DNA from: an uncultured Gammaproteobacteria bacterium
GTDB lineage: Bacteria > Pseudomonadota > Gammaproteobacteria > Steroidobacterales > Steroidobacteraceae
Direction of reading: 5' to 3'
Length of the DNA stretch: 64,000 nt
Assembly: GCA_963813755.1 (NCBI GenBank)
Contig: CAWEZY010000004.1
Location: forward strand, 346,565 to 410,564
Shown here: one piece after another, positions 17,554 through 39,640 of the stretch
Numbering within the stretch: the first letter of the stretch is position 1
Layout: every line of letters starts with the position of its first letter
Made by a program: the position numbers and the translations under genes
Notes under the pieces: generated by a model
Databases searched by the model: none
Seen by the model: only the letters and a program-made list of their open reading frames with translations
What the model was told of the DNA's origin: nothing

Positions 17554-17582
17554 CCGTCATGCACCCGAGCATCGCTGAGCGG

Positions 17583-18140
17583 ATGAAGGCATCGTCGTCG
17601 CCGGCCGGCGTTGCAGCCGGCGGGCGGGCCTGCGCGAAGCGCGCGCGCGGCTTCAGCTTGGTCGAAGTCATGGTGGCGCTGGTGGTGTGCGCGGTCGGGC
17701 TTTTGGGTCTTGCCAAGATGGAGTCGCTCGCCTTGTCGAGCACCAGCGTCGCCAGTTCGCGCTCGATCGCGGCCATCGAAGCGTCCAGTCTCGCAGCCGC
17801 CATGCACGCGAACCCCGGCTACTGGGCGGGAGGATTTGCGCCGGCCACGACCATCGTCAGCGCCGCGAACAATTTTGCCGCCGCCGCCCCGTGCCTGACC
17901 GCCGGCGCGGCCAGCTGCATTCCGAGCGCCATGGCCTTCTACGACCTGCAGCAGTGGGCAACGGCGCTTGCCGCGGTGCTCCCCGGGTATCTCGCGACCA
18001 TCACGTGCTCGACGGCCGGCTTTCCGGTGACCTGCACCATTCAGATCCAATGGACGGAAAACGCCGTGGCCTCGAATGCCACGCAAACGAATATCGGCGC
18101 GTTGGCGCAGCCGACTTACCTGTTGTACGTGCAGCCATGA
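17583..18140 (+). CDS. pilV: type IV pilus minor pilin PilV
   Basis: Leader ...KRARG|FSLVEVMVALVVCAVGLLGLAKMESLALSSTSVASSRSIAAIEASSLAAAMHAN is the typical PilV N-terminus. An earlier in-frame Met at 17544 is an alternative start. Confidence 0.75.
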   Translation: MKASSSPAGVAAGGRACAKRARGFSLVEVMVALVVCAVGLLGLAKMESLALSSTSVASSRSIAAIEASSLAAAMHANPGYWAGGFAPATTIVSAANNFAAAAPCLTAGAASCIPSAMAFYDLQQWATALAAVLPGYLATITCSTAGFPVTCTIQIQWTENAVASNATQTNIGALAQPTYLLYVQP

Positions 18141-18919
18141 CGAACTCGCCCGCACCGTTGAAATCCGGGCGGTTCGCCGAGCGCGGATTGACGCTGGTCG
18201 AGATGATGATCGCGATTCTGATCGGCTTGTTCTTGACCGGCGGCCTTCTGACGCTGGTTCAGGCGATGAAGCGCGCCAACTTGAATCAAAGCGGCCTGTC
18301 GCAGCTGCAGGACAACGAACGCATGGCGATGACGCTGATCACCGACGTGATCAAGTCGACCGGTTATTACTACGGTCCTCTGGTCAACACGGCGGTGTCC
18401 TCCTTTCCGGTGAAGAATTACAATGCCAACGCGAACTTCACCTTCGCCGGACAGGCGCTGGTGGGCACCGGCACCTACGCCGCGGGCAACAACGTCATTA
18501 CCTCGCGCTACCTGACGGCGGGTGGTGACAACATCATCAATTGCACCGGCAATCCCTCGGGGGTGGCCGCCACCTTCGTCAATACGTTCAGTCTCGACGG
18601 CAACGGCAATCTGCAATGCACGCTCATCGTCAACGGCGGTAACCCGACCACGGTCCCGCTGATCAGCGGCATATCGAACATGCAGATCTACTACGGCGTG
18701 CAAACCAATGGCGCCGCCGGCACCAATTCGGTCGACACCTACATGGACGCCGCCGCGGTGACCGCCGGGAGCTACTGGCCCAGTGTGAAATCGGTCCAGG
18801 TCACCCTGTGGTTCGTCAATCCGTTGTTCGGACAGCCCGGGCAAACCAACGCGGCGCTGAAAAATATTCCTTTCACCCGCGTCATTGCGGTCATGGACAA
18901 GACCGGGGTCACGACATGA
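18137..18919 (+). CDS. pilW: type IV pilus minor pilin PilW
   Basis: ATG overlaps the pilV stop (ATGA). Reads ...ERG|LTLVEMMIAILIGLFLTGGLLTLVQAMKRANLNQSGLSQLQDNERMAMTLITDVIKSTGY, PilW-like. Confidence 0.75.
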   Translation: MTNSPAPLKSGRFAERGLTLVEMMIAILIGLFLTGGLLTLVQAMKRANLNQSGLSQLQDNERMAMTLITDVIKSTGYYYGPLVNTAVSSFPVKNYNANANFTFAGQALVGTGTYAAGNNVITSRYLTAGGDNIINCTGNPSGVAATFVNTFSLDGNGNLQCTLIVNGGNPTTVPLISGISNMQIYYGVQTNGAAGTNSVDTYMDAAAVTAGSYWPSVKSVQVTLWFVNPLFGQPGQTNAALKNIPFTRVIAVMDKTGVTT

Positions 18920-19479
18920 CCGCCCGGGCACAGCGCTCCAACCGGCGCCAGCGCGGCATGGTTCTCATCACCGCGCTGCTGCTGTTGATCGTGGTCACTC
19001 TGCTGGCGGTCAGCATGTTCCGCAGTTTCGGGCTGGACGAGAAAATCGCCGGCAACGTGCGCGAGAAGCAGCGCGCCCTGAATGCCGCGGAAACCGCGGA
19101 GCAATATGCGGAATATTGGCTGGCGAGCGGCGCAGCCACGGCGGCGGTCGCCTGTACCCCCCCTCTGGTCGCCGCTGCGCTCGGCCAGGTGTGCACCCTT
19201 CCGCTCGCGAGCTTCACCGCCAGCCTGCCGTGGACGATTGGAGTGGCGTATACACCGGCCGCGCCCGCCGCGATGAACGTCACGACGACGCCGGGTCAGG
19301 GAACCTATTACTTCACGCCCACGTTTTATATCACCTACCTGGGCCCGAACGGCGCCGGCAACGGGAAAATCTATCAAATCGACGCAGCTGCGTACGGGGG
19401 CAGCCCGGACACGGCTGCCGTCGTCGAATCGACGTACCTCGTTCAATCCAGTGTCTCATGCTTGGGATGTAACCAATGA
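18916..19479 (+). CDS. pilX: type IV pilus minor pilin PilX
   Basis: ATG overlaps the pilW stop (ATGA). Reads RQRGMVLITALLLLIVVTLLAVSMFRSFGLDEKIAGNVREKQRALNAAETAEQYA, a PilX N-terminal pattern. Confidence 0.7.
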   Translation: MTARAQRSNRRQRGMVLITALLLLIVVTLLAVSMFRSFGLDEKIAGNVREKQRALNAAETAEQYAEYWLASGAATAAVACTPPLVAAALGQVCTLPLASFTASLPWTIGVAYTPAAPAAMNVTTTPGQGTYYFTPTFYITYLGPNGAGNGKIYQIDAAAYGGSPDTAAVVESTYLVQSSVSCLGCNQ

Positions 19480-22400
19480 ATACCAAACTCATCGTGCTGG
19501 CCTTGGTCCTGGCGTTCGCTTGCTCGCTGCCCAAGGGTGCGCACGCGCAATCCTGCTCGAACACCAATGTGACCGAGAATTTCACGGGCACGACCACCAA
19601 TTGCTCGTGGAACTATTTCGGCGGCGCCTGCCTCACGGCGAGCAAGACACCGGGATCGGGCAATCCGGGACAGCTGCCGGGCTGCGTGGCCTCGCCCTAC
19701 TACAACGGGGTGACCCTGGTGGGCGGCAACACCGGAACCCTTCCGGATTTGCCCCCTCCCGCCGTCGGCGGCGGCGGCGCCTTGCGCTTGACCAACGATT
19801 CCGACCAGGAACGCGGCACCATCATTTCCAACGTGCCCTTTTCGCTCAGCGCCTCGGGGCTGCAGGTCACCTTCACCACCGAAACCTACGAAGGCGACAG
19901 CGGCGGTGCCAATAAAGACGGCGCGGACGGCATCAGCTTCTTCCTGCAGGACGCGAGCGCGCCGGTGAACTATGGCGATGCGGGCGGCAGCTTGGGCTAC
20001 ACCTGCTCCAACCAGAACGGCCCCCCTACGGGATACCCCTCTTATGACGGCATGGTCGGCGGCTATCTCGGGCTCGGCATCGACGAGTTCGGCAACTTTT
20101 TGAACGGCAACACCATCAACTCCTCGGGCGTGTCTACTTATTCCGGCGACAACACCTCGAGCGGCTATGGTTACGTGCCCAACCGGGTGGGGCTGCGCGG
20201 CGCCGGCAGCACGGCCTGGGCGAATCTGAGCACGAATGCGGCGACCATAATCTACTACCCGTTGACGCTGACCGCCGCTCAGCAGCAAGCCGCGGTGCGG
20301 CAGGCCTGCCAGACCGGGTATGCGTGGAATTATTCGAGCATGGCGTCTCCGGCAGGCGGGGGACCCAACGTCAACGGCGTGCCGAACCCCTATGGTGCGA
20401 CTCCGGTGACCTCGGTCAAGTTGCCGAACTACGCCGCGATTCCGAACGCCTGGAGGCTTCTCAGCAAGAACATCGCGAACGAGGCGGCGCTGTATCGAGG
20501 CTACGGCACCGCCTCGACCAGCGGCGCCAATTACGGCGTGCCCATCAGCTACAATTTGACCATTACCAAAGACGGGCTGTTGACCCTCTCGTACAGTTAC
20601 AACGGCGGCAATTACCAGCCCGTCATCACCGGGCAGAGCATCCTGGCCGCCAACGGCCCGCTGCCGGCCAACGTCCGCTTCGGCTTCGCCGGTTCGACCG
20701 GCGGCTCGCGGAACATTCACGAGATCATGTGTTTTCAGGCGCAGCCGCAGAACAGCGCATCGAGCTCCGCCGGCCTCAACCAAAAGCAGACCGCCAAGGT
20801 CCAGACCGGCACCCAGGTTTACTTCGCCTTCTACAACGCGAACAACTGGACCGGGGCGCTGACCTCGCAGTACCTGGATTCGCCCGACGGTAATCCGAAC
20901 GACCTGCAGATCGACCCGGCCGTCAACTGGGATGCATCCTGCGTCCTTACCGGCCTGGCGGAGGGCGCCACCTGCCCGACGAGCGGCGCACCGAGCGTCG
21001 CGGCCGAGGACCCGGATGCCGGACGAGTCATTATCACGGCCACCAACCCCCTGCCCGTCGTAAGCCCTGCCGGAACCCAAGCCGCCACGGGCATCCCGTT
21101 CACCTGGACTACCGCCGGCGCCACCAGCTTATCGGCCGCTCAACAGACGAACTTGAATTACGGCGATCCGGCGGCGACGGCGGGCAATTGGCCGTACAAG
21201 TCGAATTTGCGGCTGGAGTATCTGCGCGGCCTGCGCAGCAATGAACAAAACTCATCCGGGGTCGATCCCAATACGCCGGCGATCAATCCGAGCGGCTTTC
21301 GCAAGCGCACCAGCGTGCTCGGCGACATCGTCGATTCGAGCCCGACCTGGGTGGGAGCTCCTTCGGCCACCTTCCCCGCGACCTGGACGGACAATCTGTA
21401 CACGGGCACGGCGCTGCCGGAAAACAGCGGCTCCAGCTACGCCAGTTTTGAATCGACGTACGTATCTCGCATGAACGTCGTCTATGCGGGCGCCAACGAC
21501 GGCTTCCTGCACGGCTTTCGCACGGGATATTTCGACAGCAACGGCAAGTACGACGGCTCCACCAATATCGAGCGGCACCTTTGTCGGCACCGATAACGAC
21601 GGCCAGGAAGTCTTGGCGTACATGCCCGCCTACGTGGTCAACTCCATCAACAGTTCCACGACATTCGAACCACGAACGGCAACCACCAGTCCGAATATCG
21701 CGAACGATTACACCAATCCGCAGTACGCGCATAAATTCAACGTCGACGCCACGCCCGGGACCGGCGATCTGTTCTACGGCGGCCAGTGGCATTCCTGGCT
21801 GGTCGGGGGACTCGGCGCGGGCGGCAGCGCGATCTACGCCCTCGATATCACCAACCCCGGCACGGCGCCCACGTTTGCGGACAGCAAATTCACGCAAGGC
21901 AATGCGTCGGGCCTGGTCGATCGGCGAGTGGAGCAGCGCGCTCGTCACCACCACGACCAACACCGGTGGCGTCTACTCTTACCACGGTGACCGGCGGTTC
22001 CGCCACCTTTGTGTGCGCGGGCAATACGACCTGCGGCTATAGTTTGGGCAAGACCTACGGCACGCCCCAGATCCGGCGATTTCACAACACCCCCGCCAAC
22101 ACGGCCGGAGGCGCCACTTCGTGGGGGGCGGTGTTCGGCAACGGTACCGGCAGCTACAACGGCGATGCCGGCATTTTCGTCATGCTGGCGAGCAACACGG
22201 TGGGAGCGCAGCCCACATTTTATTATCTCAGCACCGGAGTGGGCTCGAGAACGGGTACTCCCAACGGGATTTACTATGTCACGGCCGGCCGATCTCGACG
22301 GCGATCACCTCATCGACTACGTCTACGCCGGCGACCTTCTGGGCAATGTCTGGCGCTTCGATTTGACCAGCCAGGATCCCAGCAAATGGGCGGTGACCAA

Positions 22401-23341
22401 GGTGGGCGGCACCCCGACGCCGATCTATACGACGCCGGGAGGCAAGCTGCAGCCGATCACCACCAAGCTCGTGGTCGCCTCGGTCGCCTCGACCAGCACC
22501 AATCCCCGGGTCATGGTGGAGTTCGGCACCGGGCAGCAAACTGCGTTCACCAATAACGCTCCCGCCACCTACTCCACCTCGCAGCAATATCTCATCGGCG
22601 TGTGGGACTGGAATCTGAGCGCGTGGAACAGCGACGACATCGCCCGTGAAATACGACGCCTTGTCCTCGAGCTCGACGCCGGTGGCGCCGGCTTCGGCCC
22701 TGTCCGGTCTCGAGCCAGCTGCAGCAGCAGACCATCACCGGCACCTACGATCCCAACTCGGCGGCCAGCAGCGCCTCGAGCACGGCGGCCAACAACGCCT
22801 ACTACCGGACCGTATCGAACAGCGGCCATTTGCTGGGCCGACCAGAGCGGCTGTTCGGGTGCTCGGGACAATACGGCTGGTATATGGCGCTCGGCACCGG
22901 ATTACGCGAATCAATACGATCCGAATTACCCGACCGGCAGCATCACCACCAGTTCGCAGCAGGTCTACGAGCAGGTCATATTCAGCCCCACTTTGGCGGA
23001 CGGCGCTTTCCTGGTGAACACCACGATTCCGCCGACCACCGTCGCTGGCCGAATGCTTGGCGACCTCGGCGGGCGGCTGGACCATGGCGATCAATCCGGC
23101 CACCGGGGGTGCGTTCACCAATTCGTTCTTCGGCGATGCGAACCACAATTTTCTCAACATCAACAATCAAATCCGTGAGCGGCATCGCGTTGAGCGGCAC
23201 CGGCAGTCGCCTCGGTGGTGACTGCGGGAACCAACACGTTCCTTGTCACCCAGACGTCGGCGGAACGGGCGCACTCGCGCAGATCAATCCGCCCGGCGGG
23301 CCACCAAGGGCAGTCGGCTCACCTGGATCGAGAAACGCTAA
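19476..23341 (+). pseudogene. pilY1: PilY1-family pilus tip adhesin with lectin-like N-terminal module, >=6 frame disruptions downstream of 21.6 kb
   Basis: ATG overlaps the pilX stop. 19476..21596 is an intact 706-aa segment with signal peptide MNTKLIVLALVLAFACSLPKGAHA. Later segments in shifting frames carry PilY1/PilC propeller hallmarks: GFLHGFRTGYFD, YAHKFNVDATPGTGDLFYGGQWHSWLVGGLGAGGSAIYALDITNP, a Ca-site-like ADLDGDHLIDYVYAGDLLGNVWRFDL, and VMVEFGTGQ...QQYLIGVWDW. It ends ...RLTWIEKR* at 23341. Confidence 0.8.
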
Positions 23342-23369
23342 CCGTGAAAACGCGATCCAGCGAAAGGCG

Positions 23370-23870
23370 ATGCCCCATGAACACGACATCTTTCGGCGCG
23401 GCAGATCGCCGAGCCGCAGGTTGAAGGCTCGGGGGTTCACCCTCATCGAGCTGCTCATCGCCATGGTGATCGTGGCGATTCTGGCCTCCATCGCCATTCC
23501 CTCGTACCAGGCGTACGTGCTCAGATCGCACCGCACCGACGCCAAGTCGGCGTTGCTCGACATGGCGAGCCTGGAGGAGCGCTTTTTCAGCACCAACAAC
23601 ACCTACAGTCAGACGCCGACCGATCTTGGCTACACCGGTGCGGTGGTACCATTCACCATCGGCCAACGGCTACTACCAGATCACCGCCCTCACGGTGGTC
23701 GCGCCGGCTCCGCCCGCCGGCGGAATCAACGGAACGCCGGCGACCTATGCGATCACCGCCCGGCGATCGGCAATCAAGCCCAAGATACCACAGTGCCTGA
23801 CGTTCACCATCAATTCCGCGGGGCAGCAAACCGCCACCCCCGACCGGCCGGGAGATTGCTGGTCAGATAG
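23370..23870 (+). pseudogene. pilE: type IV minor pilin PilE-like, >=2 frame disruptions; 3' end uncertain
   Basis: ATG 23370. Reads ...RRLKARG|FTLIELLIAMVIVAILASIAIPSYQAYVLRSHRTDAKSALLDMASLEERFFSTNNTY. The C-terminal part is in other frames (NGYYQITALTV..., QCLTFTINSAGQQTATPDRPGDCW disulfide loop). Confidence 0.65.
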
Positions 23871-24438
23871 CTTCGTGTCTAGCGCATTCGGCGTCGGCGG
23901 CCGGTTCGGTTTCCGCGCCCGCCCGACTGCCGCCCTACTGCGCGCTGTATCCGCGCCCTTCGATGCAGGCCATCATCGCCCGCTGATAATCGGAAGCCGC
24001 CCGCCGCGCCCTGCCCGTTCTGCTGCGCGGCCCATTGCTGGCATTCGCGCCGGTCGGTGGCCTGCTGCTCTCGCTTTGGCCATTCATCGGGTACATGAAG
24101 ATCTGCCCCGATTGACCCGCAGATCGCCCGGCCCCGACGCTCGCCGCTGGCCGGTCGTCCCCGCCGCGGCGCCGCTCGGATCCGCCACCGGCGGCGGATC
24201 GGTCGCCGTATAGCCCTGGTAGTCCGGGTTCCAGGTGTAGTACACGTCATTGGCGTAGTAGTACGGGACGCCGGCGTACCAGTAGGTCACGTAGGCAACT
24301 GGCAGCACCGGCAGAAACCAGGCAAAGCCCGTAGCCGTAGTAGGCCCGCGGCCAGTAGCCGCCATGCCAATAGCCGCCGCCCCAATAGGCGCCGGTCGAA
24401 TAGCCGTGATAGCCGGCGTAACCGCCACGATAGGCGCC

Positions 24439-24522
24439 GCCATGATAGCCGCCGTAACCGCCACGATAGCCGCCGTAGCCGCCATGATAGCCGCCATAAC
24501 CGCCACGATAGCCGCCGTAGCC
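24439..24522 (-). repeat. 42-nt tandem repeat x2 (one mismatch) encoding GGY(R/H)GGYGGY units
   Basis: Units 24439-24480 and 24481-24522 (gccatgatagccgccgtaaccgccacgatagccgccgtagcc) differ at one base. The flanks continue the 9/12-nt GGY periodicity. Confidence 0.9.
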
Positions 24523-24665
24523 GCCACGATAACCGTTCGTCGACGCATGATAACCGCCCCCGGGGGCACTGTAGCCATGCGCTCCACCCGCATAGGCCGC
24601 CGCATGAGCGCTCCCGCCCCAATGCCCACCACCCAACGCCGACCCACGGCCCCTGCCACCCATAT

Positions 24666-24719
24666 GCCCGCCGCCGCCCGTGTGCCCGCCGCCGCCCGTG
24701 TGCCCACCGCCGCCCGTGT
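24666..24719 (-). repeat. 18-nt tandem repeat x3 encoding HTGGGG
   Basis: gcccgccgccgcccgtgt occurs three times (the third copy has one substitution). The minus-strand translation is HTGGGGHTGGGGHTGGGGH. Confidence 0.95.
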
Positions 24720-24930
24720 GCGCTTGTGCAAGCCCGGCCGCAAGCGCCAGGGTGGACCCCAAGAGTCCGGCCGCCAGAAGCTGTCGTTTAATCATGATTG
24801 CACCCTCCGGAGAAGCCACTCGGATGGCAAACCAGTTCACCCTTGTGGGAATTAACGCAGATCAAGGCATTTGGTGCACATGACTCATTCAAGGCCGCCG
24901 GGCATGCCGATGCCGGCGCGATGCCCCGCG

Positions 24931-27081
24931 CTAATTCACCCGCCATGCGGCAGTGAACATAATATAGGCTACCCGGCCGGGTGCGGCTTCAAAATAGCGC
25001 GCATTGCTCTCATTCACGATGACGGAGCCGACATAGGTCCGGTTGGCGAGGTTGTCCACGCGAGCGAATTCGCTGAATCGCCAGCCTTCGGTTTCCTGTT
25101 CGAGGCCGGCCCCCAGGTTCCAAACCCAATAGCCCGCGGCCGCCGCCGTATTGCGGTCATTGGCGTAGATCTGTGCGCGCCCTTGAGTCTCGAGCAGGGT
25201 CGAAAAGCCCCATGGGCCATAACACCAGTTGAGATTCGCGTACAGCGCATTCAGGGGCACTGCGGGCAGGTAGCTGCCGGGCTCGACGATCGCGGGTTTG
25301 CACGGCGTGCCGACGCAGGTCGCATACGGTTGGTCCACCACCGCATGAATGTAGGTGTACGCCAGCCGCGAGCTGAATCCGCCCGCCCAGGACGCGTCGA
25401 CGGCGAGTTCAGCCCCGCGCCGCGTGGTGTCTCCAATGTTTTGTTCGACCGCCCGACCGTTGAAATTCTGCAGCACCGCGAGCTCATCGCGGGTCTCGAT
25501 ATAGAAGGCGGCAAGTTCGGCGCGCACCCGACCGGAAACCTGCTTGATGCCGACCTCGTAGTTATTGCTGCGCGCCGGCTGCAGCCCGATGTTCAGCCCC
25601 GGCAGGCTCCCATCCGCGGAGCGATAGGCGAGATCGTTCAGCGTCGGCGTTTCGAAGCCCTTGCCGTACGCGGCGTACAGAATGACGGCCGGGCTCGCAT
25701 GAAAGAGCGCGGCCGCCACCGGATCGACCGCCGTATAACGCAGGCTGCTGTGCGGCTGTCGGCACCCGGCAGATCGTCGTTCGAGCTCACCTCGACCAGG
25801 TTATTGCGCACGCCCGCGGTGAGGCGCCAGAGCGCATCGGGATCCCACTGCGTCTGCAGATATTGATCGAAGTCGTACACATGATTCGACTCGTTACGGC
25901 GCAGCTCGCCCTGGCACGCCCAATTCGTTGCCGACGTAGTTCAAGAACCCCATGCGCTGTTCTTCCAGATCGTCATAGGCGAGCCCGCCCACGGTCTGCA
26001 GCGCGGTGCCGCCGAGCGCGCGCTGATCGGTCATATGCACATCGATGCCCCAAAAATCGCGGTCCAGATCGATGACTCCGCCCGGATACAGCGGCCTCGC
26101 CTCCTCGGTCGCTTGCGGAATGGCTTGAAACTGCGTAGTGGCACGATGCCCCGCGTAGAGCGTGGCGGACAGATCGTCGGCCGAGGTGAGCTTGTCGTCG
26201 AACACCGCGCCGATCTGCTCCTGAGCGAGCGATTTGCGCGTGTTGTACGGCACGGCGCCGGTGCCCGCCTGACTCGGGTTTGCCGCGAGCTGCGCTTGTG
26301 TGAGACCCAGAGGATCCTGCACGAAGGGGGTTTCGACCACATTCGCCACGAAAGTCAGGGTCGCCGCGGAGCTCAGCGGGAGGCGCAGCTTCGCGTTGAA
26401 ATTGTTGCGCTCCGCGTTACTGTGGAAGCGATAGCCGTCGGTTTGAAAATGCACGGCATCCACCACGTAATTGACGATGCCGTCGTCGCCCGTCGTCTTC
26501 AGCGCGTAGCGCTGGGTGTTGAACGTGCCGTACTGCGCCGTGCCGTCGATGAAGTAACCTGGTTTGGCGTCCTCGGTGAAGATCGCGATCACGCCGCCCG
26601 ACGAATTGCCATAGAGCGCCGAGAACGGACCGCGCAGCACCTCCATGCGGCCGGCGGATCCCAAATCGAATTGCGAGAACTGGCCCTGACCGTCGGGCAT
26701 GGTGCCGGGAATGCCGTCCGAGTACAGCCGCACGCCGCGCACGCCGAAGCTCGCGCGTGCGCCGAAGCCGCGCACCGACAGCTGCTCGTCCTGTGCGTAG
26801 TTCTGCCGGCTCTGCGCCGACACGCCGGGCACGGTCACCAGGGACTCGGAGATGTTCACCTGCAGTTGCCCTACTTGAATGGTGGCTTGATCCACCCGAT
26901 CGATCGAGGCGGGAATATCGAAGCTCGATTGCAGAACCCGGGTCGCGGTCACCACCAGGGGCGATAAATCCGGCGCGGATTCAACCGCGACTTCGGCACG
27001 GGCGCCGCCCTGATAAGCGCACGCCAACAAAAGCGACCACCCGGCCAAATCGCCATTGATCTTCGCATAGACGGTGATCAT
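24931..27081 (-). pseudogene. TonB-dependent outer-membrane receptor, two frame disruptions
   Basis: Fragments 25894..27081, 25638..25880 and 24931..25719 give a signal peptide, a plug (LVVTATRV...DIPASIDRVD...ESLVTVPGV...RGFG...VLRGPFSALYGNSSGGVI), a long beta-barrel and the C-terminus ...RVAYIMFTAAWRVN*. Frame changes near 25890 and 25730. Confidence 0.85.
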
Positions 27082-27425: not shown

Positions 27426-28061
27426 ATGAAAACACCGGTTGTCTTGAGAATTGCTGGGCGCTGCATCATTGGCACTGCCGCTCATGGCGTTCGCGGAATC
27501 GAATGTTCAAACGGGTGCGGCGACCGCCGCGCCGGGTGCGACCGCGCACGTGGATTTCTCGATCGTGATTCCGAAGATCCTTTATTTGCGCGTCGGCACC
27601 GGATCCAGTTACACGGTTGGGACACTGAGCAACAAGCGACCGTCAATCTGATCACATTTTCCCCGACCGCGGCCCAGGTCGGAAACGGCACCGCGGTTGC
27701 CGGCGCCGGCAGGCAATCTTGCGCGGCGGCACGGTGACCGCGGCCCTCGTCAGCAACAGCGGCAACGTCACGCTGAAGGCCACCGCGGCCGGCGCGCTCC
27801 TCGACGTCGCCGGCGACTCGATTGGGTTCACACAAATCAAAACGACCTCTGCGGCCGGCTTCTATCCCACCCTTCTACCCGCGCCGGTTCTGCAGAACGG
27901 CGTCAGCGCCAATATCCTCATACGGCGCCGGCCTCGAAGATCATCAAAACGGAGCCAGGTGGACGTTCACCTACGCCAACGCCAATCTGGTGCCGGCCGG
28001 CACCTACGGCGGTGTCAACGTGCGCAACGGCCGCGTGGTCTACACGGCGACGATGCCGTGA
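27426..28061 (+). pseudogene. secreted beta-rich fibre-subunit candidate P1 (unknown family), >=4 frame disruptions
   Basis: Read across the frame changes: MKTPVVLR.LLGAASLALPLMAFA|ESNVQTGAATAAPGATAHVDFSIVIPKILYLRVGTGSSYTVGTLSNK.ATVNLITFSPTAAQVGNGTAVAGAG..GTVTAALVSNSGNVTLKATAAGALLDVAGDSIGFTQIKTTSAAGFYPTLLPAPVLQNGVSANIL.TAPASKIIKTE.RWTFTYANANLVPAGTYGGVNVRNGRVVYTATMP*. In the two N-terminal segments I compared codon by codon, differences from P2 are mostly third-position in the chosen frame, which supports those frames as coding. ATG and stop are in the same frame, 636 nt apart. Confidence 0.6.
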
Positions 28062-28063
28062 GG

Positions 28064-28094
28064 GTTCGCACGCGCCTCCGATCTGCGTGCGAAC
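28064..28094 (+). terminator. perfect 10-bp stem-loop 3 nt after the P1 stop (attenuator or mRNA-stabilising hairpin candidate; no U-tract)
   Basis: GTTCGCACGC (28064-28073), an 11-nt loop, then GCGTGCGAAC (28085-28094), followed by TGGCGCACAAAATCC rather than a T-run. Confidence 0.4.
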
Positions 28095-28164
28095 TGGCGC
28101 ACAAAATCCAAAGCGAAATTGCCGTTGCAGTCGAGTTCTCGAGCCGGCCACAAATCTGCGACAT
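28087..28164 (+). promoter_or_regulatory. P2 leader with the same two islands as the P1 leader
   Basis: GTGCGAACTGGCGCACAAAA lies at 28087-28106 and CTGCGACAT at 28156-28164, at 210 and 141 nt before ATG 28297. The first island doubles as the 3' arm of the post-P1 hairpin. Confidence 0.35.
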
Positions 28165-28296
28165 CGTTCAATTCCGCCGCAAACCTTAATCCGTAGTATT
28201 GTCCCGCGAATGAAGCTGCGATAGGCGGCCAGGCGCTTCAGGCAGCCGATACCAAATTAAAGAACCGTACCGTCACCACAGCACAGGAAGCAGATC

Positions 28297-28932
28297 ATGA
28301 AGACATCGATGGCATTGAAAACCTTGTTGGGCGCAGCGTCACTGGCGCTGCCGCTCATGGCGTTCGCGGAATCGAACGTTCAAACGGGTGCCGGCCCGCT
28401 CACCGCGACGGCGCACGTCGACTTTCAGATCGTGATTCCGAAGATTCTGTACCTGCGCGTCGGCACCGGCTCCGCGTACACGACCGGGGCGCTGGTCAGC
28501 GATCCGACACGGTCGATCTGATCACCTTTTCGCCCACGGCAGCTCAGGTGGGCAACGGCACCGCCATGGCCGGCATCGGCGGCGATCTGACGGCGGCGTC
28601 GAGACCGCGGCCGTGGTGAGCAACAGCGGCAACGTCACGCTGAACGCCACGGCCACCGGCGCTGACGCGACGGCCGCGGGCGACGTCATTCCGTACACTC
28701 AGATCACCGCGACCGCCGCGACGCTGACCTCTGCCACTGCGCTGCCTGCGTCCGGTGGTGAACAACGGCACCAGTGCGCAACGTCGTGATCACCGCGCCG
28801 GCCACCAAGGTCATCGTTCAAGATGCCAAGTGGACGTTCGCCTACGCCAACCCGCGCTGCCTGCCGACCGGCACGTACGGCGGTGTCAACACCAACAGCG
28901 GCCGCGTGGTCTACACGGCCACGATGCCGTAA
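28297..28932 (+). pseudogene. secreted beta-rich fibre-subunit candidate P2 (tandem paralogue of P1), 4 frame disruptions
   Basis: AGGAAG RBS. Reads MKTSMALKTLLGAASLALPLMAFA|ESNVQTGAGPLTATAHVDFQIVIPKILYLRVGTGSAYTTGALVSD.DTVDLITFSPTAAQVGNGTAMAGIGGDLT.GGVETAAVVSNSGNVTLNATATGADATAAGDVIPYTQITATAATLTSATALPA.PVVNNGTSA.NVVITAPATKVIVQDAKWTFAYANPRCLPTGTYGGVNTNSGRVVYTATMP*. Also exactly 636 nt from ATG to an in-frame stop. Confidence 0.6.
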
Positions 28933-28955
28933 CGCGAGCGGAACGGCGCCTTGCG

Positions 28956-29709
28956 ATGCGCGACAACTCGCCATTGCCGCCGGCGTCACTGCCCGCGGTG
29001 ACGCCGGCAAAGCTCGGGGCGCGAGTCTCCGATTTCGCGCAACCCGAGAGGATCACGCTGCGCCGAGTCCTGTGCGCCGCGGCCCTGGTCGCGGCCCTGA
29101 GTCGGTGGCGATCGCAAAAGCATCCGGCGTTCACGGTCACGATGAGCCGCGGCCACGCCGCAGACCATTTACCTGCAGGTCGGCGTCGGCAGCTTCACGA
29201 CCGACTACATCGCCGGCGGCCAGCCGCAGAACAACGCCACCATCAACATGGTATCGGCGACGGTGGCCGCGACGGCGCTCTGGGCAACGGCACCGCGCAG
29301 GCGATGACGACGAACAGCACCACCACGCAAGAGCTTTTATGACGGCTACGCGTATTGCACGCGTGCCGGCGGGCCAGCTCTACATCGGCGGCTTCTATCG
29401 CACCACCGGCGCGACCGGCGCCGCGGCCCAGGTCACCGCCACCGTGCCGGCGGCATTGACCAACGCCGGCGGCAGCACGATTCCGTTTTCAAAAATCAGT
29501 TGGACCTCGAGCGGCAACGGCGATACGGGCAGCCCTGCCCGAGCCGTTTCCCGCGGGCACCTTCGTCAACGGCGGCGTGCAGAACGTGGGCTCCATGGCG
29601 CAGCAACACCTGGAACGAGAGCTGCTGGACGTTCTCCTATCTGAACAACACCGTCCCGCCGGCCGGCACCTTCACCGGGCGGGTCGTGTACACGCTGACC
29701 TCGCCATGA
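28956..29709 (+). pseudogene. secreted fibre-subunit candidate P3 (divergent paralogue of P1/P2), >=3 frame disruptions; start uncertain
   Basis: Begins 23 nt after the P2 stop. Hydrophobic signal-like RRVLCAAALVAALS, then in shifting frames ...TPQTIYLQVGVGSFTTDYIAGGQPQNNATINMVSATVAATAL..., ...IARVPAGQLYIGGFYRTTGATGAAAQVTATVPAALTNAGGSTIPFSKISWTSSGNGDTGS..., ...FPAGTFVNGGVQNVG... and ...CWTFSYLNNTVPPAGTFTGRVVYTLTSP*. It shares the YL(R/Q)VG(T/V)GS and WTF.Y.N...P.GT..G.V.YT.T.P strands with P1/P2. Confidence 0.5.
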
Positions 29710-30188
29710 TCGCCGCCCGCCGCACCGCGCCGGCGACTTTTTTTTTGGCCTGTGCATTTAGCATAATCTGGGCCGCCGCCGCGCAGGCGAAAACGACCAC
29801 GATCGATGATTCGGGCACGCAGGCGCTCGAACCCGTCGTGAACATGCGCTGGAAGAACGCGACCGCCGCCGCGCTCGGGCGCCGACGACCTGATGGTCGG
29901 CACGACGACGATTCGAGTGCGGCTCAACGTCATGCCCTGGCTCAGGCGCTCGGGGCGGATCTATCTGTCGTTGCCGGCGCAGCAGCCGGGCCCCATCGGC
30001 GCCTCGTGGGTCGCGCAAGGCCGATTCCTCTCGGGACGGGTTCAGTCCGGCAATCGCGTGCTGGTCTATGCGGGCCCCATCACCACGCCCTTCATGGAGG
30101 ACGTGCTCAAGTTTCAGTTCAGGTGAACGGGACGCTGATCCGGCGCCCCTTCCCGGTGAGCTTTCACTTCGAGATGGATGAGGATTGA
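29706..30188 (+). pseudogene. small secreted protein P4 of unknown family (compensating pair of frame changes)
   Basis: ATG overlaps the P3 stop (ATGA). Signal peptide MIAARRTAPATFFLACAFSIIWAAAAQA|KTTTIDDSG.... The middle ~230 nt is protein-like only in another frame (ADDLMVGTTTIRVRLNVMPWLRRSGRIYLSLPAQQPGPIGASWVAQGRFLSGRVQSGNRVLVYAGPITTPFMEDVLKFQF). It then returns to the first frame (VNGTLIRRPFPVSFHFEMDED*). Confidence 0.5.
29738..29746 (+). repeat. T9 homopolymer inside the P4 signal-peptide codons
   Basis: gcgac-ttttttttt-ggcc encodes T-F-F-L. This is an unusually long A/T run for this GC-rich sequence. Confidence 0.9.
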
Positions 30189-30190
30189 TC

Positions 30191-30985
30191 ATGCGACGCA
30201 GTGTCCTGTTTCTGATCTCGTTGATCGGTGTCGCGCTCTCGGCGTCCGTGCAAGGCGCAGGGGTTTGCGGCGCTGGTCTCGCCGCCGCGCTTCGAGCTCG
30301 CCGCGAAACCCGGCAAGACCCTGCGCAGCGTGATCGAGGTGAGCAACCGCTCGACGGCACCCGCCAAGTACCTCGTCCATACCGCAGACTGGACCTTGAC
30401 GCCGGATTTCGGCGTGAATTTCCACGACGATCTGCAGGAGGGCAGCTGCCGCCCCTGGGTCGCGATCGAGCGTCCCGAGGTCGTGGTGCCCGGCGGCGGA
30501 ACCCTGCGCTACCGCTTCGAGGTGACCGTGCCGGCGGATGCGCAGGCCGGTGAATGCCGTTTCGCCGTGATGATCGAAGGCGCCGAACCCTCGATCGCCC
30601 GCAGCAAGGGCCTCAACTTGCCGATCACGGGGCGCATCGGCGTCATCGTCTACGTGGGCATCGGCGACGGTGACGCCGGATCTCGAGATATTGGGTCCCG
30701 AGGTCGTGGCCTTCAATGGCCAGCAGGTGCCGAGCCTGCGCGTGCACAACGGCGGCACCGCTCACGGCCGCATGACCGGATTCCTCGACCGGCACGGACG
30801 CGAAGGGAATCTCCTACGACTTCACGCCCTTGGACTTTCCGATCCTGCCTCACGAAGAGCGTGAGATCTTCTTGACTCCGTCGACGGCCAGCGAAGATCA
30901 CCCGACGCTCACCTTCCCGGTGACGGTGAAGGGCACGCTCGAGTGGGGCCAACACAGGACTGAATTCAATCAGCGCTTTGAATGA
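30191..30985 (+). pseudogene. periplasmic PapD/FimC-like chaperone candidate, >=3 frame disruptions
   Basis: ATG lies 2 nt after the P4 stop. Signal peptide MRRSVLFLISLIGVALSASVQG, then ...FAALVSPPRFELAAKPGKTLRSVIEVSNRSTAPAKYLVHTADWTLTPDFGVNFHDDLQEGSCRPWVAIERPEVVVPGGGTLRYRFEVTVPADAQAGECRFAVMIEG...PITGRIGVIVYVGIGDVTPDLEILGPEVVAFNGQQVPSLRVHNGGTAHGRMTGFLDGTDAKGISYDFTPLDFPILPHEEREIFLTP...TVKGTLEWGQHRTEFNQRFE*. The ~264-aa length, the all-beta two-lobe pattern and the opening VSP.R.EL..PG......I.V.N resemble pilus chaperones (from memory, not searched). Confidence 0.5.
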
Positions 30986-33031
30986 CACCCCGTGCGAAAC
31001 TCGCGCCCCGGCTCGCGCTCGGCCTGTCCGGGCTGGGGGGATTCGCCTGGCTCGGCGCAGCGCAGGCGCAAGCGCGAAGTACCGACCCCGACGGTACCCG
31101 CGAGCGCCGGCACACCGATTGCGGCACCGGCTTATCAGGATCGATACATCGGCGGCGGATCGCTCGCCCCCGACATCTCCGCGGAAGACGGTAATACCAG
31201 CGATAGCACGAGGGTTGGCGCGCTCGGTGCAGATCGACGCGAGTCGCGAGCAGGCTGACCGCTTCCGGGGCCGGTGCGATCCAGCACTTTTCGGAGAACG
31301 GCATCGTCGCCAAGTCGCAATGGGACACCGCCGTCTACGGTGCGTGGTCCCTCGATGCCTCCGCGCGCACCGGAGGCTCCGACAATGCGCTGTCCGGGTC
31401 AGGGTCAGGGCGGCGTGGTCACGCTCCGGCAGCGCGGCATGCCCTTCGACGGCAATTGGCAGGCCGACAATGCCTTGGGCGATCTCAACTCGCCCGACGT
31501 CGGCTTGGCCCGAGTTCAATCGCGATTTTATTTGCCCACCGGACCGATGCAGGGCCTCACCACGGAATGGCGTGGTCCGTCCGACCTGCAGATCGTCGCG
31601 GGCGGCGGAGTGCCCGGCATATACGACGGTATTCTCGTGCCGGATTTTCACACGCTGGGCGGATCCACTGCGACCGCCGGCGCGCAGTGGTCTCCGGCCT
31701 CTCACTGGACGGTCGGCGGACAGTTCATCGAGGCTCACGACGTGAACCTTGCCGTCGGCCCGATAATCGACAACGCATCGCTCCTTTCCTCGAACACCGG
31801 ACTCCTGAGCGCCGCCTGGCAAGACCAGGGTGAGCGCGTTCAGATGAATCTCCTCGACGGCGAAGTCAGCGGCAGATCGAATGCCATTGGCGGTTGGGTC
31901 GACGGCTCGATGACTCAGGGCCGAGTGACGCAGAACGCCGGCCTGTTTCGCATCGACCCTAATGTGACCTGGGGCAACCAGCTGATTTCGAGCGACCTGC
32001 AAGGCGGCTACTACCGGCTCGGCTACCAAAGCCGGCAATGGCTGGCGGATGGCGGTATCGATGAAGTGCGCTCCGTTTCCGGCCTCGGCACCAACACCAC
32101 GTTCCTCACCGGCGAAACTCGCTATCAGATGTTCCGCGACTGGGGGGTCGGAAGCGTCGGCAATCTCAGTCTTGCCGACGGCGGCAACGGTTGGTCGCTG
32201 GAGGGCTATGTCGATCACGTGAATTCCTGGGGCAGCGGCCGCGCGCAGGCCGATTTCGCCGAGACCCCGACCAACAAGGGCACGATGCTGACTCTGGATC
32301 AGACATGGTCGACACCCGCCGGCATCCGGCTCAGCACGTCGGCCTCCGCGGCGCGCCTCACGGGCGCCCCGCTCAACGGCATCGGTCAGGACAGCACGGT
32401 GCTCGGCCTCGCCGTGTATGGCGGCGGTCAGATCACCGCCAAGTTGGAAATCGAGGGCAATGTGCTTTGGGCGACCGTGGTGCAAGGGCGGGCGGCACCG
32501 GCCATATCCGCCAATGTCTCGTTGTCTTATCAGCTCTCCAATAATTGGAAGATCCTCGCCACTTATTACGACAGCCATGTCGGCTCCTGGACGCCGCTCG
32601 CCGTCAACTCGCCTATCGCGCCTCCGGTGGCCGCCACGATTCCGTCGGTCAGCGATCGCGGCATGTTTTTGACCTTCCGCTATCAGCGGGCTTCGGGAAT
32701 GCACTTCGCGCCGCTCGGCGGCGCACCCGGCGCCGGGTCCGGCGCAATATCGGGTATCGTCTATCTCGACGCGAACAGCAACGGACGCCTCGACGCCGCG
32801 GAAGCCGGCGCGCCCAACGTGACGGTGGTGCTGGATGGGCGGTTTTCGGTGCGGACGGACGCCAGCGGCCGATTCAGTTTCCCGGCGGTGGCTTCGGGCC
32901 AACACGTGATTACGGTCGTGCCGGACAACCTTCCGCTTCCATGGGTCCTCGTCAACGACGGCCGAACCGAGCTGGTCGTCACCACCCGGGGCCGCACCGA
33001 CATCAGCATCGGCGCGCAGCGCCCGCGCTAG
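30982..33031 (+). pseudogene. outer-membrane protein (~683 aa) with C-terminal carboxypeptidase-regulatory/SdrD-B-like beta-sandwich; usher-like by position only; >=3 frame disruptions in the first ~130 codons
   Basis: ATG overlaps the chaperone stop (ATGA). Signal peptide MTPRAKLAPRLALGLSGLGGFAWLGAAQAQA. 31274..33031 is one uninterrupted 585-aa segment with a barrel-like alternating pattern (GGYYRLGYQSRQW, WKILATYYDSHVGSW, GMFLTFRYQR). Its C-terminal module reads GIVYLDANSNGRLDAAEAGAPNVTVVLDGRFSVRTDASGRFSFPAVASGQHVITV. Confidence 0.55.
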
Positions 33032-39283: not shown

Positions 39284-39640
39284 TCAGTGCTCGATCTGGC
39301 GATTGAACGTCTCCGGCAGAAAAAGCAGCCCCACGATGAGCGTGGCGGTGGTCTGAATCCGGCTGGTATACACACCGCGCTTGCCCGGCGGCGCATGTTC
39401 GGCCACATAGGTTGCGGCACCACCGTATTCGCCGCCGAGCGCCGGACCTTGCAGCAACCTCAACAGCACCAAGGCGACCGGTGCCGTCACTCCGATTGCC
39501 GCGTAGTTCGCCAGCAATCCGTACAGATAAAAATCGTACCATTCGAACACCGTGCCGAGCGATGAGGCGCCGATTACCAGCCACTGATTGGAGACTACGG
39601 TTTGCTCGCCGCGCAATTCGGCCGAGGCCTTTCTGTTCAT
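39284..39640 (-). pseudogene. remnant of an MFS metabolite:H+ symporter (MHS/ProP-KgtP-like)
   Basis: The 118-aa ORF keeps ...FEWYDFYLYG... and ...LLRLLQGPALGGEYGGAATYVAEHAPPGKRGVYTSRIQTTATL.... It lacks the ~60 residues normally between these motifs and everything after about TM5 (full-length relatives are >400 aa). Confidence 0.65.

What the first reader, a model, noticed from the sequence alone, without database searches (positions are those of the whole stretch)
27426..33031. Candidate undescribed chaperone-assisted surface-fibre system: three paralogous subunits, small secreted protein, PapD-like chaperone, atypical OM protein
Six plus-strand genes are packed with ATGA overlaps or tiny gaps: P3/P4 at 29706-29709, the chaperone 2 nt after P4, and chaperone/OMP at 30982-30985. 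All six have Sec-type signal peptides. P1 and P2 (~211 aa) and the divergent P3 are Cys-poor, Thr/Ala/Gly/Asn/Val-rich proteins that share an N-terminal strand and a C-terminal strand, the composition expected of beta-sandwich pilins. Gene 5 has the length and opening motif of a PapD/FimC-type chaperone. Gene 6 is a ~683-aa OM protein with a C-terminal carboxypeptidase-regulatory/SdrD-B-like sandwich. It is ~150 aa shorter than classical ushers, and I recognise no FimD/PapC signature in it. From memory I cannot place the subunits in the type 1/P, CS1, Csu/SCPU, curli or Fap families; DUF4402-like is the closest guess. No transposase or integrase flanks the locus. The only neighbour is a divergent TonB-dependent receptor.
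Basis: inference. Interest (0 to 1): 0.85.

Follow-up and report, generated by a model that had tools for sequence, protein, structure and literature searches.

The report
Unannotated chaperone–usher-like surface fibre operon
Six tightly packed genes in a soil Steroidobacteraceae-like genome look like a very divergent pilus-assembly system whose periplasmic "chaperone" is related to a Gram-positive surface-protein partner (WxLIP), not to any known pilus chaperone; no protein-family database I scanned names the parts.

Summary
Window 27426-33031 carries six co-directional genes with the stated ATGA overlaps: two 70%-identical subunits, a divergent third, a small secreted protein, a two-domain periplasmic protein and a ~681-aa outer-membrane protein.

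The order subunit(s)-small-chaperone-OMP is conserved in all 80 related loci fetched, almost all uncultured Steroidobacterales MAGs.

No component reaches a Pfam or NCBIfam threshold. Profile comparison with E. coli FimC, FimD and FimA-type families finds nothing.

The "chaperone" is instead homologous over both domains to Gram-positive WxLIP (DUF916-DUF3324; hhalign 97.7-98.8%; PDB 9i25_C, E=4e-5) and lacks its membrane anchor.

AlphaFold models give weak fold-level links. The subunit's best PDB matches are donor-strand pilins (FimG first). The OMP is a ~24-26-strand barrel plus a C-terminal sandwich, with FimD and PapC ushers as best matches.

Best reading: a deeply divergent chaperone/usher-type assembly system, so far undescribed. 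Fibre formation is inferred, not shown.

The window copy carries 24 frameshifts but no in-frame stops, and dN/dS is near that of intact relatives. Consensus error is more likely than decay, but this is unproven.

The parts
27426..28061 (+). P1, subunit of the 'A' type (~208 aa after frame correction). It has a signal peptide. An N-terminal run of alternating hydrophobic residues follows (ATAHVDFSIVIP), then a KILYLRVGTG strand. The C-terminus reads WTFTYAN...AGTYGG...RVVYTATMP.
   Evidence: 5 frameshifts. It is 70% identical to P2. Orthologue family of 1963 proteins. AF2 model of the orthologue and its fold search.
28297..28932 (+). P2, tandem paralogue of P1 (~209 aa after correction).
   Evidence: 4 frameshifts. 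Two A-type copies also occur in several relatives, for example L008, L060, L068, L079.
28956..29709 (+). P3, divergent 'B'-type subunit (~220-245 aa; the start codon is uncertain). It shares the N-terminal strand (AFTVT...IYLQVGVGSF) and the C-terminal motif (ESCWTFSYLNNTVPPAGTFTGRVVYTLTSP). It carries a conserved Cys pair.
   Evidence: 6 frameshifts. A-type against B-type hhalign 99.2%. Alignment A10.
29706..30188 (+). Small secreted protein (~160 aa; mature form starts KTTTIDDSGT and ends FEMDED). It has no detectable relative outside this operon type. It lacks both subunit motifs.
   Evidence: 2 compensating frameshifts. Alignment A9. No PDB or Pfam match. Unrelated to the other parts by hhalign. 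Present at the same position in all 80 loci.
30191..30985 (+). Periplasmic two-domain Ig-like protein (263 aa), the putative chaperone. It is a homologue of Gram-positive WxLIP (DUF916 + DUF3324) without the C-terminal membrane helix. Conserved features: SPPRFEL, DW, SCRPW, ECRF, GRxxVIVYV, NxGxAHGR.
   Evidence: (3 frameshifts).
30982..33031 (+). Outer-membrane protein (~681 aa). It has a signal peptide and a ~60-residue low-confidence N-terminal segment with a conserved YQDRYIGGGSLxPDIS motif. A predicted ~24-26-strand beta-barrel follows, then a Gly/Pro linker and a C-terminal SdrD_B/CarboxypepD_reg-like beta-sandwich.
   Evidence: (4 frameshifts, the last near 31400). A distant relative carries an extra C-terminal OmpA domain, which places this end in the periplasm.

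Best explanation
The locus encodes a deeply divergent chaperone/usher-type assembly pathway for a surface polymer or fibre.

Proposed steps:
1. The three subunits, the small protein and the chaperone-like protein are exported by Sec (inferred from signal peptides).
2. In the periplasm the soluble WxLIP-like two-domain protein caps each Ig-like subunit by lending it a beta-strand. This is inferred from homology to WxLIP, which is predicted to complete the WxL sandwich with a parallel strand and has been solved in complex with a WxL protein.
3. The large barrel protein lets the subunits across the outer membrane. Its periplasmic C-terminal sandwich plays the part of an usher C-terminal domain (inferred from fold matches and gene linkage).
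4. At the pore each subunit's conserved N-terminal amphipathic strand, with five alternating hydrophobic residues, replaces the chaperone strand in the preceding subunit. This builds a polymer of A-type major subunits with B-type and 'mini' variants as minor subunits (inferred).
5. The small orphan protein is an accessory of unknown role, possibly a tip or initiator, or a stand-in for the missing usher plug or N-terminal domain (speculative).

The copy in this window is most likely intact in the organism. Its 24 frameshifts are most likely consensus errors.
For: Conservation.
- The gene order [mini]-A(1-2)-B-small-chaperone-OMP occurs in 80 of 80 loci. It recurs in more distant relatives: L091 with the same order, L094 with two subunits, chaperone-like and OMP but no small protein.

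Chaperone-like protein.
- Profile against PDB hits EfmWxLIP1 9i25_C and 9i1y_A at E=4e-5.
- 10 of 58 relatives hit Pfam WxLIP_PGBD.
- hhalign against 8 WxLIPs gives 97.7% local (E=1.6e-12) and 98.8% global over 241-280 columns, so both domains align.
- Some JGI records name relatives 'fimbrial chaperone protein'.
- WxLIP is predicted to insert a strand into WxL (PMC10599100). A WxL-WxLIP complex is in the PDB.
- Within the family an Arg in the first strand is conserved (R33, 53 of 58), as is a GR before the hydrophobic 'VIVYV' strand (R148, 48 of 58).

Subunits.
- AF2 best model has pLDDT 86.
- Top PDB fold matches are donor-strand pilins: FimG 3jwn_G (E=1.7e-3, prob 0.99), AbpA 7ueg, an ETEC type I pilus, the PapG pilin domain with PapD, PsaA, CS20, CsuA/B and CooA.
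- All paralogues and distant relatives share the N-terminal alternating-hydrophobic strand. They also share a C-terminal ...AGTYxGxVxYTxTxP-COOH motif with a nearly invariant terminal Pro.

OMP.
- The AF2 model is a large barrel plus a C-terminal sandwich.
- Best PDB matches are FimD 9fy9_D (E=2.4e-10), 3rfz and 9fw9, and PapC 6cd2.
- The OmpA domain at the C-terminus of a distant relative puts that end in the periplasm.

Integrity of the window copy.
- No in-frame stops occur in the corrected frames.
- dN/dS against the closest clean relative is 0.24-0.50. Among intact loci it is 0.12-0.49.
Against: - No sequence-level link to any chaperone-usher family exists. There are no PF00345, PF02753, PF00577, pilin or SCPU hits. 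hhalign against E. coli chaperones, ushers and pilins gives probabilities of 0.1-7%.
- Fold matches are weak in geometry: TM 0.28-0.37 for the subunit and 0.35-0.40 for the OMP.
- Only one of five subunit models is confident (pLDDT 86 against 60-65). The OMP model has mean pLDDT 64.
- Generic large barrels also match the OMP: MtrB, TonB-dependent receptors, LptD and porins.
- The OMP has no usher N-terminal domain and no plug-sized insertion.
- WxLIP itself is described as a surface anchor or partner, not as an assembly chaperone.
- One distant locus (L090) has the chaperone-like gene and two small downstream genes (one subunit-like) but no large OMP gene nearby.
Confidence: 0.6

Rival explanations
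1. Non-polymerising surface complex, the diderm counterpart of the Gram-positive WxL/WxLIP cluster. Here the WxLIP-like protein is a stable partner that holds one or a few Ig-like proteins. These are displayed through or on the barrel protein as a fixed outer-membrane complex. No fibre is formed.
For: - The only significant homology of any component is to WxLIP. WxLIP is described as a permanent partner of WxL on the cell surface (PMC10599100).
- The subunit C-terminus (AGTYxGxVxYTxTxP) resembles the distal WxL motif (xYxTTLTWxLxxxP) seen in the fetched WxL proteins.
- hhalign aligns the C-terminal halves co-linearly.
- MtrB, a sheath-type 26-strand barrel, has the highest TM score among the OMP matches (0.40).
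Against: - Similarity between WxL proteins and the subunits is not significant (probability 6% or less).
- The solved WxL chain 9i25_A is not among the top 50 fold matches of the subunit model, whereas donor-strand pilins lead the list.
- The protein here has no membrane anchor, so it is a soluble periplasmic protein.
- Several paralogous subunits share one conserved N-terminal amphipathic strand. That fits polymerisation better than a fixed complex.
Confidence: 0.2
2. In this particular genome the locus is a decaying pseudogene cluster. The 24 frameshifts are real and the system is no longer made.
For: - Frameshift density is about 24 in 4 kb here, against about 3 in 9 kb of neighbouring housekeeping genes.
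- Most of the flanking sequence contexts printed for the 24 sites contain no long single-base run.
- Other surface genes nearby are also hit: the C-terminal half of PilY1, a pilin and a Gly-rich protein.
- dN/dS of the chaperone gene is somewhat higher than among intact loci (0.24 against 0.12-0.14).
Against: - There is no in-frame stop codon in 5.6 kb of corrected frames, and no large deletion.
- Family-conserved residues are intact in the corrected chaperone-like protein (reconstruction, read by eye against the conserved columns).
- dN/dS stays well below 1. It is alike in the frameshifted and frameshift-free parts of the OMP gene (0.36 and 0.22).
- P1 and P2 both shift frame at the homologous position, which suggests a systematic consensus error.
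- Many related genomes are long-read metagenome bins. Errors there would concentrate in strain-variable surface genes.
Confidence: 0.25
3. The barrel protein is a solute or polymer channel, for example for a polysaccharide or a nutrient linked to the neighbouring TonB receptor. The small Ig-like proteins would then be periplasmic or surface binding modules rather than exported subunits.
For: - The OMP model also matches AlgE, OccK porins, TonB-dependent receptors and LptD at E of 1e-5 to 1e-6.
- A TonB-dependent receptor lies next to the locus in the window and in L001.
Against: - The TonB receptor is on the opposite strand and is absent from that position in L002 and L003.
- No glycosyltransferase, polysaccharide or transport gene is linked in the loci fetched with called genes and Pfam marks. 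In all 80 loci the genes between the subunits and the OMP are only those of the operon.
- Ushers are the top matches for the OMP model by 2-4 orders of magnitude in E-value.
Confidence: 0.05

Closest known systems
Chaperone-usher pili (classical Fim/Pap; archaic Csu/CupE; alternative CS1)
   Same: - Operon logic: several paralogous Sec-exported Ig-like subunits, one ~26-kDa two-domain periplasmic protein and one large outer-membrane barrel with a periplasmic C-terminal beta-sandwich, translationally coupled.
- The subunit model is most similar to FimG and other donor-strand pilins. The OMP model is most similar to FimD and PapC.
- Subunits have an N-terminal alternating-hydrophobic strand and a C-terminal Gly-x-Tyr...aromatic motif, as pilins do. 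The pilin comparison rests on my own knowledge of pilin sequences.
   Different: - No sequence homology is detectable by hmmscan or hhalign for the chaperone, usher or pilins.
- The OMP is ~150 aa shorter than classical ushers. It has no N-terminal domain, no plug insertion and only one C-terminal domain, of SdrD_B/CarboxypepD_reg type.
- The chaperone belongs to the WxLIP family.
- An extra conserved small orphan protein is present.
- Subunits end in an invariant Pro.
WxL / WxLIP (Csc, DUF916-DUF3324) surface-protein clusters of Lactobacillales and other Bacillota
   Same: - The chaperone-like protein is homologous to WxLIP across both Ig-like domains.
- Both clusters pair it with two or more small beta-rich secreted proteins encoded just upstream.
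- Strand insertion from WxLIP into its partner is predicted (PMC10599100), and a complex is solved (PDB 9i25).
- The C-terminal motifs of the partners look alike.
   Different: - The host is a diderm.
- There is no C-terminal membrane helix, no LPXTG protein or sortase and no large adhesin-type WxL protein.
- The partners are not recognisable WxL domains: no PF13731 hit and hhalign 6% or less.
- A dedicated outer-membrane barrel and a small orphan protein are added.
Other donor-strand fibres (TasA/TapA of Bacillus, archaeal bundling pili AbpA, archaeal threads, type V pili of Bacteroidia)
   Same: AbpA (7ueg) is the fourth-best fold match of the subunit model. The general principle is the same: beta-sandwich subunits joined by a donated strand.
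   Different: Those systems have no periplasmic two-domain chaperone and no usher-like barrel. Type V pili use lipoprotein sorting and proteolysis. None shares sequence families with this operon.

Membership tests
Chaperone-usher pathway | Periplasmic chaperone of the PapD family (Pfam PF00345 and PF02753) | tested here: not met
   There is no PapD_N or PapD_C hit for the window protein, for clean orthologues or for 58 diverse relatives. hhalign against FimC, YadV, SfmC, YehC and YraI gives probability 5.6%. EcpB appears in the PDB search only at E=1.4.
Chaperone-usher pathway | Outer-membrane usher of family PF00577 | tested here: not met
   No PF00577 hit appears in 8 OMPs scanned at E up to 5-10. 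hhalign against FimD, HtrE, SfmD, YehB and YraJ gives probability 0.1-0.3%.
Chaperone-usher pathway | Usher fold and layout: N-terminal domain, 24-strand barrel with plug, two C-terminal sandwich domains | tested here: inconclusive
   The AF2 model (pLDDT 64) shows a ~24-26-strand barrel and one C-terminal sandwich. No N-terminal domain and no plug-sized insertion are seen. FimD and PapC are the best PDB matches (E 2.4e-10 to 1e-7), but TM is only 0.3-0.4.
Chaperone-usher pathway | Ig-like pilin subunits with an N-terminal donor strand | tested here: inconclusive
   No pilin Pfam hit. hhalign against E. coli pilins gives 2-5%. The best AF2 model (pLDDT 86; the other four 60-65) matches FimG first (prob 0.99, TM 0.28-0.36) and then other pilins. 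A conserved N-terminal alternating-hydrophobic strand is present in all paralogues.
Chaperone-usher pathway | Polymerisation by donor-strand exchange at the usher | not testable with these tools
   This needs multimer modelling or experiment.
WxL/WxLIP cluster | WxLIP protein with DUF916 (PGBD) followed by DUF3324 (HBD) | tested here: met
   Profile against PDB EfmWxLIP1 gives E=4e-5. hhalign against 8 WxLIPs gives 97.7% local and 98.8% global over both domains. The Pfam WxLIP_PGBD hit is sub-threshold for this protein (E 0.03-0.06). It reaches E<0.01 in 10 of 58 relatives.
WxL/WxLIP cluster | C-terminal transmembrane helix on WxLIP | tested here: not met
   The protein ends right after the second domain (263 aa...EFNQRFE). 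WxLIPs run to 333-376 aa and end in a hydrophobic helix.
WxL/WxLIP cluster | Partner proteins carrying a WxL domain (two Trp-x-Leu motifs, PF13731) | tested here: not met
   There is no WxL Pfam hit in 29 diverse subunits at E up to 10. hhalign of WxL proteins against the subunits gives probability 6% or less. Only the C-terminal motif is alike.
WxL/WxLIP cluster | LPXTG protein or sortase in the cluster; monoderm host | tested here: not met
   No such genes occur in the loci. The hosts are Gammaproteobacteria-type MAGs, and an outer-membrane barrel gene is present.
   No hits for window fragments, clean orthologues or 29 diverse subunits.

The most novel reading that the evidence does not exclude
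This operon is the diderm member of one ancient assembly system that also gave rise to the Gram-positive WxL/WxLIP clusters. On this reading its subunits are true, very divergent homologues of WxL domains. WxLIP-type proteins are donor-strand chaperones in both cell types. The family is an independent lineage of chaperone-plus-pore fibre assembly, parallel to, or at the root of, the classical chaperone-usher pathway.
Probability: 0.3. Interest if true: 0.8.

Novelty: new variant of a known kind. Interest (0 to 1): 0.62.

Why it matters
If it is correct, chaperone/usher-type assembly is broader than the families now used to find it. A whole clade of soil Gammaproteobacteria would carry a surface-fibre system that every annotation source seen here, apart from some JGI records that name the chaperone-like gene 'fimbrial chaperone protein', labels 'hypothetical'. 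Relatives turn up in at least 397 species-level genomes by a narrow pattern search, and the chaperone family has about 1,700 clusters at 50% identity.

It would also give the poorly understood Gram-positive WxLIP proteins a mechanistic reading as strand-donating chaperones. That links a monoderm surface-display system and a diderm pilus-like system through one shared component.

In practice the clean orthologous operons (L001, L104) are small enough at about 5 kb to synthesise and express.

Tried and rejected
- Pfam and NCBIfam scans of window fragments and clean orthologues gave nothing but sub-threshold SdrD_B, CarboxypepD_reg, WxLIP_PGBD and NPCBM_assoc.
- PDB sequence searches found nothing for the subunits, for the small protein or for the OMP barrel (only SdrD-type repeats at the C-terminus).
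- hhalign against E. coli K-12 chaperones, ushers and pilins found no similarity.
- The idea that the small protein is a paralogue of the subunits or of the chaperone was rejected.
- The idea that the subunits are WxL domains is not supported statistically. I kept it only as the 'novel case'.
- tblastn of the chaperone-like protein against plasmids found no match.
- Rfam over the whole window gave no family. The promoter scan gave no sigma-70-like site, and the terminator-like sites are not convincing.
- A GC3-phase HMM meant to map frameshifts across the window was too crude to use. It misassigned strands in the subunit genes, so I replaced it with homologue-guided alignment.
- The attempt to identify the source record of the window through P0001 failed, because it is not on record.
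- Two alignments were too diverse for the locus scan.
- Literature searches for a described system of this kind found nothing. The cyanobacterial tubular pilus paper (PMC12397347) describes a different gene set.

Full report
**What is in the sequence**

Window 27426-33031 holds six + strand genes. There is an ATGA overlap at 29706-29709, a 2-nt gap before the ATG at 30191, and an ATGA overlap at 30982-30985.

The reading frames are badly broken. A homologue-guided, frameshift-aware alignment needs 24 frameshifts: P1 5, P2 4, P3 6, small protein 2, chaperone-like 3, OMP 4. All lie before about 31400. The corrected frames contain no stop codon.

After correction P1 and P2 are 70% identical, and each is 35-37% identical to P3.

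**Host and conservation**

Homologues of the OMP, the chaperone-like protein and the A-type subunit number in the hundreds to thousands. The named ones come from Steroidobacteraceae or Steroidobacterales MAGs.

Clean syntenic loci (L001, L002/L003, L104) give intact genes of 210-213, 222-245, 160-161, 263 and 681-688 aa.

A scan of one genome per species found 397 genomes with a relative of the chaperone-like gene. The 80 best are all MAGs: Steroidobacteraceae, 'Gammaproteobacteria', one Nevskiaceae and one Burkholderiaceae.

In all 80 the order is [optional 'mini' subunit]-A subunit (one or two copies)-B subunit-small protein-chaperone-like-OMP.

More distant relatives of the chaperone-like protein (25-46% identity) sit in related contexts:
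- L091 has three subunits, the small protein, the chaperone-like gene and a 702-aa OMP.
- L094 has two subunits, the chaperone-like gene and a 903-aa OMP.
- L090 has the chaperone-like gene and two small downstream genes (one subunit-like) but no large OMP nearby.

**Family membership by sequence**

Pfam and NCBIfam recognise none of the proteins. The only hits are a just-sub-threshold SdrD_B/CarboxypepD_reg match at the OMP C-terminus and sub-threshold WxLIP_PGBD/NPCBM_assoc matches on the chaperone-like protein.

I built reference alignments of five E. coli K-12 chaperones, five ushers and ten pilins. Profile-profile comparison gave probabilities of 0.1-7%. The system is therefore not a member of the chaperone-usher families by any sequence criterion I could apply.

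Within the operon the A, B and 'mini' subunits are homologous (99.2% and 99.7%). The small protein is unrelated to everything.

**The chaperone-like protein is a WxLIP homologue**

A profile of 58 diverse relatives hits the solved Enterococcus faecium WxLIP1 (PDB 9i25_C and 9i1y_A) at E=4e-5. Ten of the 58 hit Pfam WxLIP_PGBD.

I fetched eight annotated WxL loci from Gram-positive plasmids. hhalign of their WxLIPs against the family gives 97.7% local (E=1.6e-12) and 98.8% global over 241-280 columns. That span covers both DUF916 and DUF3324.

The protein here stops where WxLIP continues into its membrane helix.

WxLIP is described as two perpendicular Ig-like domains. AlphaFold predicts that it inserts a strand, in parallel, into a gap of the WxL sandwich (PMC10599100). 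PDB 9i25 holds a WxL protein (chain A) together with WxLIP1. That is chaperone-like behaviour in the PapD sense.

Within the family an Arg in the first strand (SPPRFEL) is conserved, as is a Gly-Arg ahead of a hydrophobic strand (GRxxVIVYV). A Cys pair is conserved too.

**Subunits**

All paralogues and distant relatives share two features.
- After the signal peptide come five alternating hydrophobic residues (for example A-x-V-x-F-x-I-x-I). A Pro or Gly follows, then an 'hxhxhRVGxG' strand.
- The C-terminus reads W-x-F-x-Y-x-N...P-x-A-G-T-Y-x-G-x-V-x-Y-T-x-T-x-P, with a nearly invariant terminal Pro.

The best AlphaFold model of the A subunit has pLDDT 86, but the other four models have only 60-65. 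Its best PDB matches are FimG, the Pyrobaculum bundling pilin AbpA, an ETEC type I pilus, the PapG pilin domain bound to PapD, PsaA, CS20, CsuA/B and CooA. Probabilities reach 0.99, but TM scores are only about 0.3.

The C-terminal motif resembles the distal WxL motif of the fetched WxL proteins (...Y-x-T-T-L-T-W-x-L-x-x-x-P), and hhalign aligns the C-terminal halves co-linearly. The score is not significant, at probability 6% or less. The solved WxL chain is not among the top 50 fold matches.

**Outer-membrane protein**

The AlphaFold model (pLDDT 64) has four parts:
- a ~60-residue unstructured N-terminal segment;
- about 24-26 long strands between residues 84 and 577, with no plug-sized insertion;
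- a Gly/Pro linker;
- a C-terminal beta-sandwich.

The best PDB matches are FimD (9fy9_D at E=2.4e-10; 3rfz; 9fw9) and PapC (6cd2). MtrB and many generic barrels follow, and TM scores are 0.3-0.4.

In the distant relative L094 the SdrD_B domain scores above threshold and is followed by an OmpA peptidoglycan-binding domain. This places the C-terminal part in the periplasm, where usher C-terminal domains act. The inference rests on the known periplasmic location of OmpA-like domains.

**Mechanism**

The best-supported reading is a very divergent chaperone/usher-type pathway. Sec exports the parts. The soluble WxLIP-like protein caps the subunits. The barrel exports them. The N-terminal strand drives polymerisation.

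What is shown:
- the gene set and its conservation;
- the WxLIP homology;
- the shared subunit motifs;
- the fold-level leaning toward pilins and ushers.

What is inferred:
- strand donation by the chaperone-like protein;
- export through the barrel;
- polymerisation into a fibre;
- any role for the small protein.

The main rival is a non-polymerising WxL-like surface complex.

**Are the frameshifts real?**

Neighbouring housekeeping genes carry about 3 disruptions in 9 kb. This locus carries 24 in about 4 kb. The nearby C-terminal half of PilY1, a pilin and a Gly-rich protein are also hit.

Three observations argue against decay.
- The corrected frames have no stops.
- P1 and P2 shift frame at the homologous position.
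- dN/dS against the closest clean relative (L104) is 0.31, 0.50, 0.24 and 0.25 for the B subunit, small protein, chaperone and OMP. Among intact loci the ranges are 0.25-0.29, 0.32-0.49, 0.12-0.14 and 0.16-0.25.

This favours consensus errors concentrated in strain-variable surface genes of a metagenome bin, or else very recent inactivation. It cannot be settled without reads.

**Novelty**

I found no paper describing such a system. No database name appears beyond 'hypothetical', 'SdrD B-like domain' and an occasional automatic 'fimbrial chaperone protein'.

I class it as a new variant of a known kind: chaperone-plus-outer-membrane-pore assembly of Ig-like subunits. It is unusual in that its one recognisable part belongs to a Gram-positive family.

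Noticed in passing
window 16981-23862: A type IV pilus minor-pilin and tip cluster lies just upstream. It comprises PilX-like (18931-19476), PilY1 (19476-23338) and a ComP_DUS-type pilin (23424-23862). The same cluster sits upstream in L001 and L002. The C-terminal half of PilY1 has 4-5 frame changes and the pilin has 1.
   Followed up: partly
window 24247-24840 (- strand): A secreted Gly/His/Tyr/Arg-rich repeat protein (HTGGGG x3, then GGYRGGYGGYHGG repeats). Conserved counterparts of 266 and 296 aa occur in L001 and L002 at the same position. It has no Pfam family and carries two frame changes here.
   Followed up: partly
window 25894-25896: The TonB-dependent receptor gene (24931-27081, - strand) aligns in one frame to its L001 orthologue but is interrupted by an in-frame stop codon.
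   Followed up: no
window 19476-41600: Frame disruptions cluster in surface-structure genes: PilY1, the pilin, the Gly-rich protein and the six-gene locus, at about 4-5 per kb. Housekeeping neighbours (PLP enzyme, Zip, DNA glycosylase, methyltransferase, enoyl-CoA hydratase, DUF3014, Asp protease) have 0-1 each.
   Followed up: partly
window 39338-39637 (- strand): Only two short pieces (residues 3-46 and 108-171) of the 557-aa MFS transporter found at this position in L002 are detectable. The gene seems largely deleted or replaced here.
   Followed up: no
L094 8851-11562; L095: In a distant lineage the operon's OMP is 903 aa. It has two CarboxypepD_reg/SdrD_B-type domains and a C-terminal OmpA peptidoglycan-binding domain. 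That operon has no small orphan protein.
   Followed up: partly
L090 8001-10011: A low-GC relative has the chaperone-like gene first, followed by two small genes of 175 and 205 aa. The second is A-subunit-like (hhalign 97.9%). No large barrel gene lies within 8 kb, so the chaperone-subunit pair can occur without a linked OMP.
   Followed up: partly
L002/L003/L006 and about 40 other loci, gene upstream of the A subunit (e.g. L002 6461-6943): A 'mini' subunit of 120-180 aa keeps the N-terminal strand and the C-terminal ...VCTASMP end but lacks the middle of the A subunit. It has its own Cys pair. It is absent from the window and from L001.
   Followed up: partly
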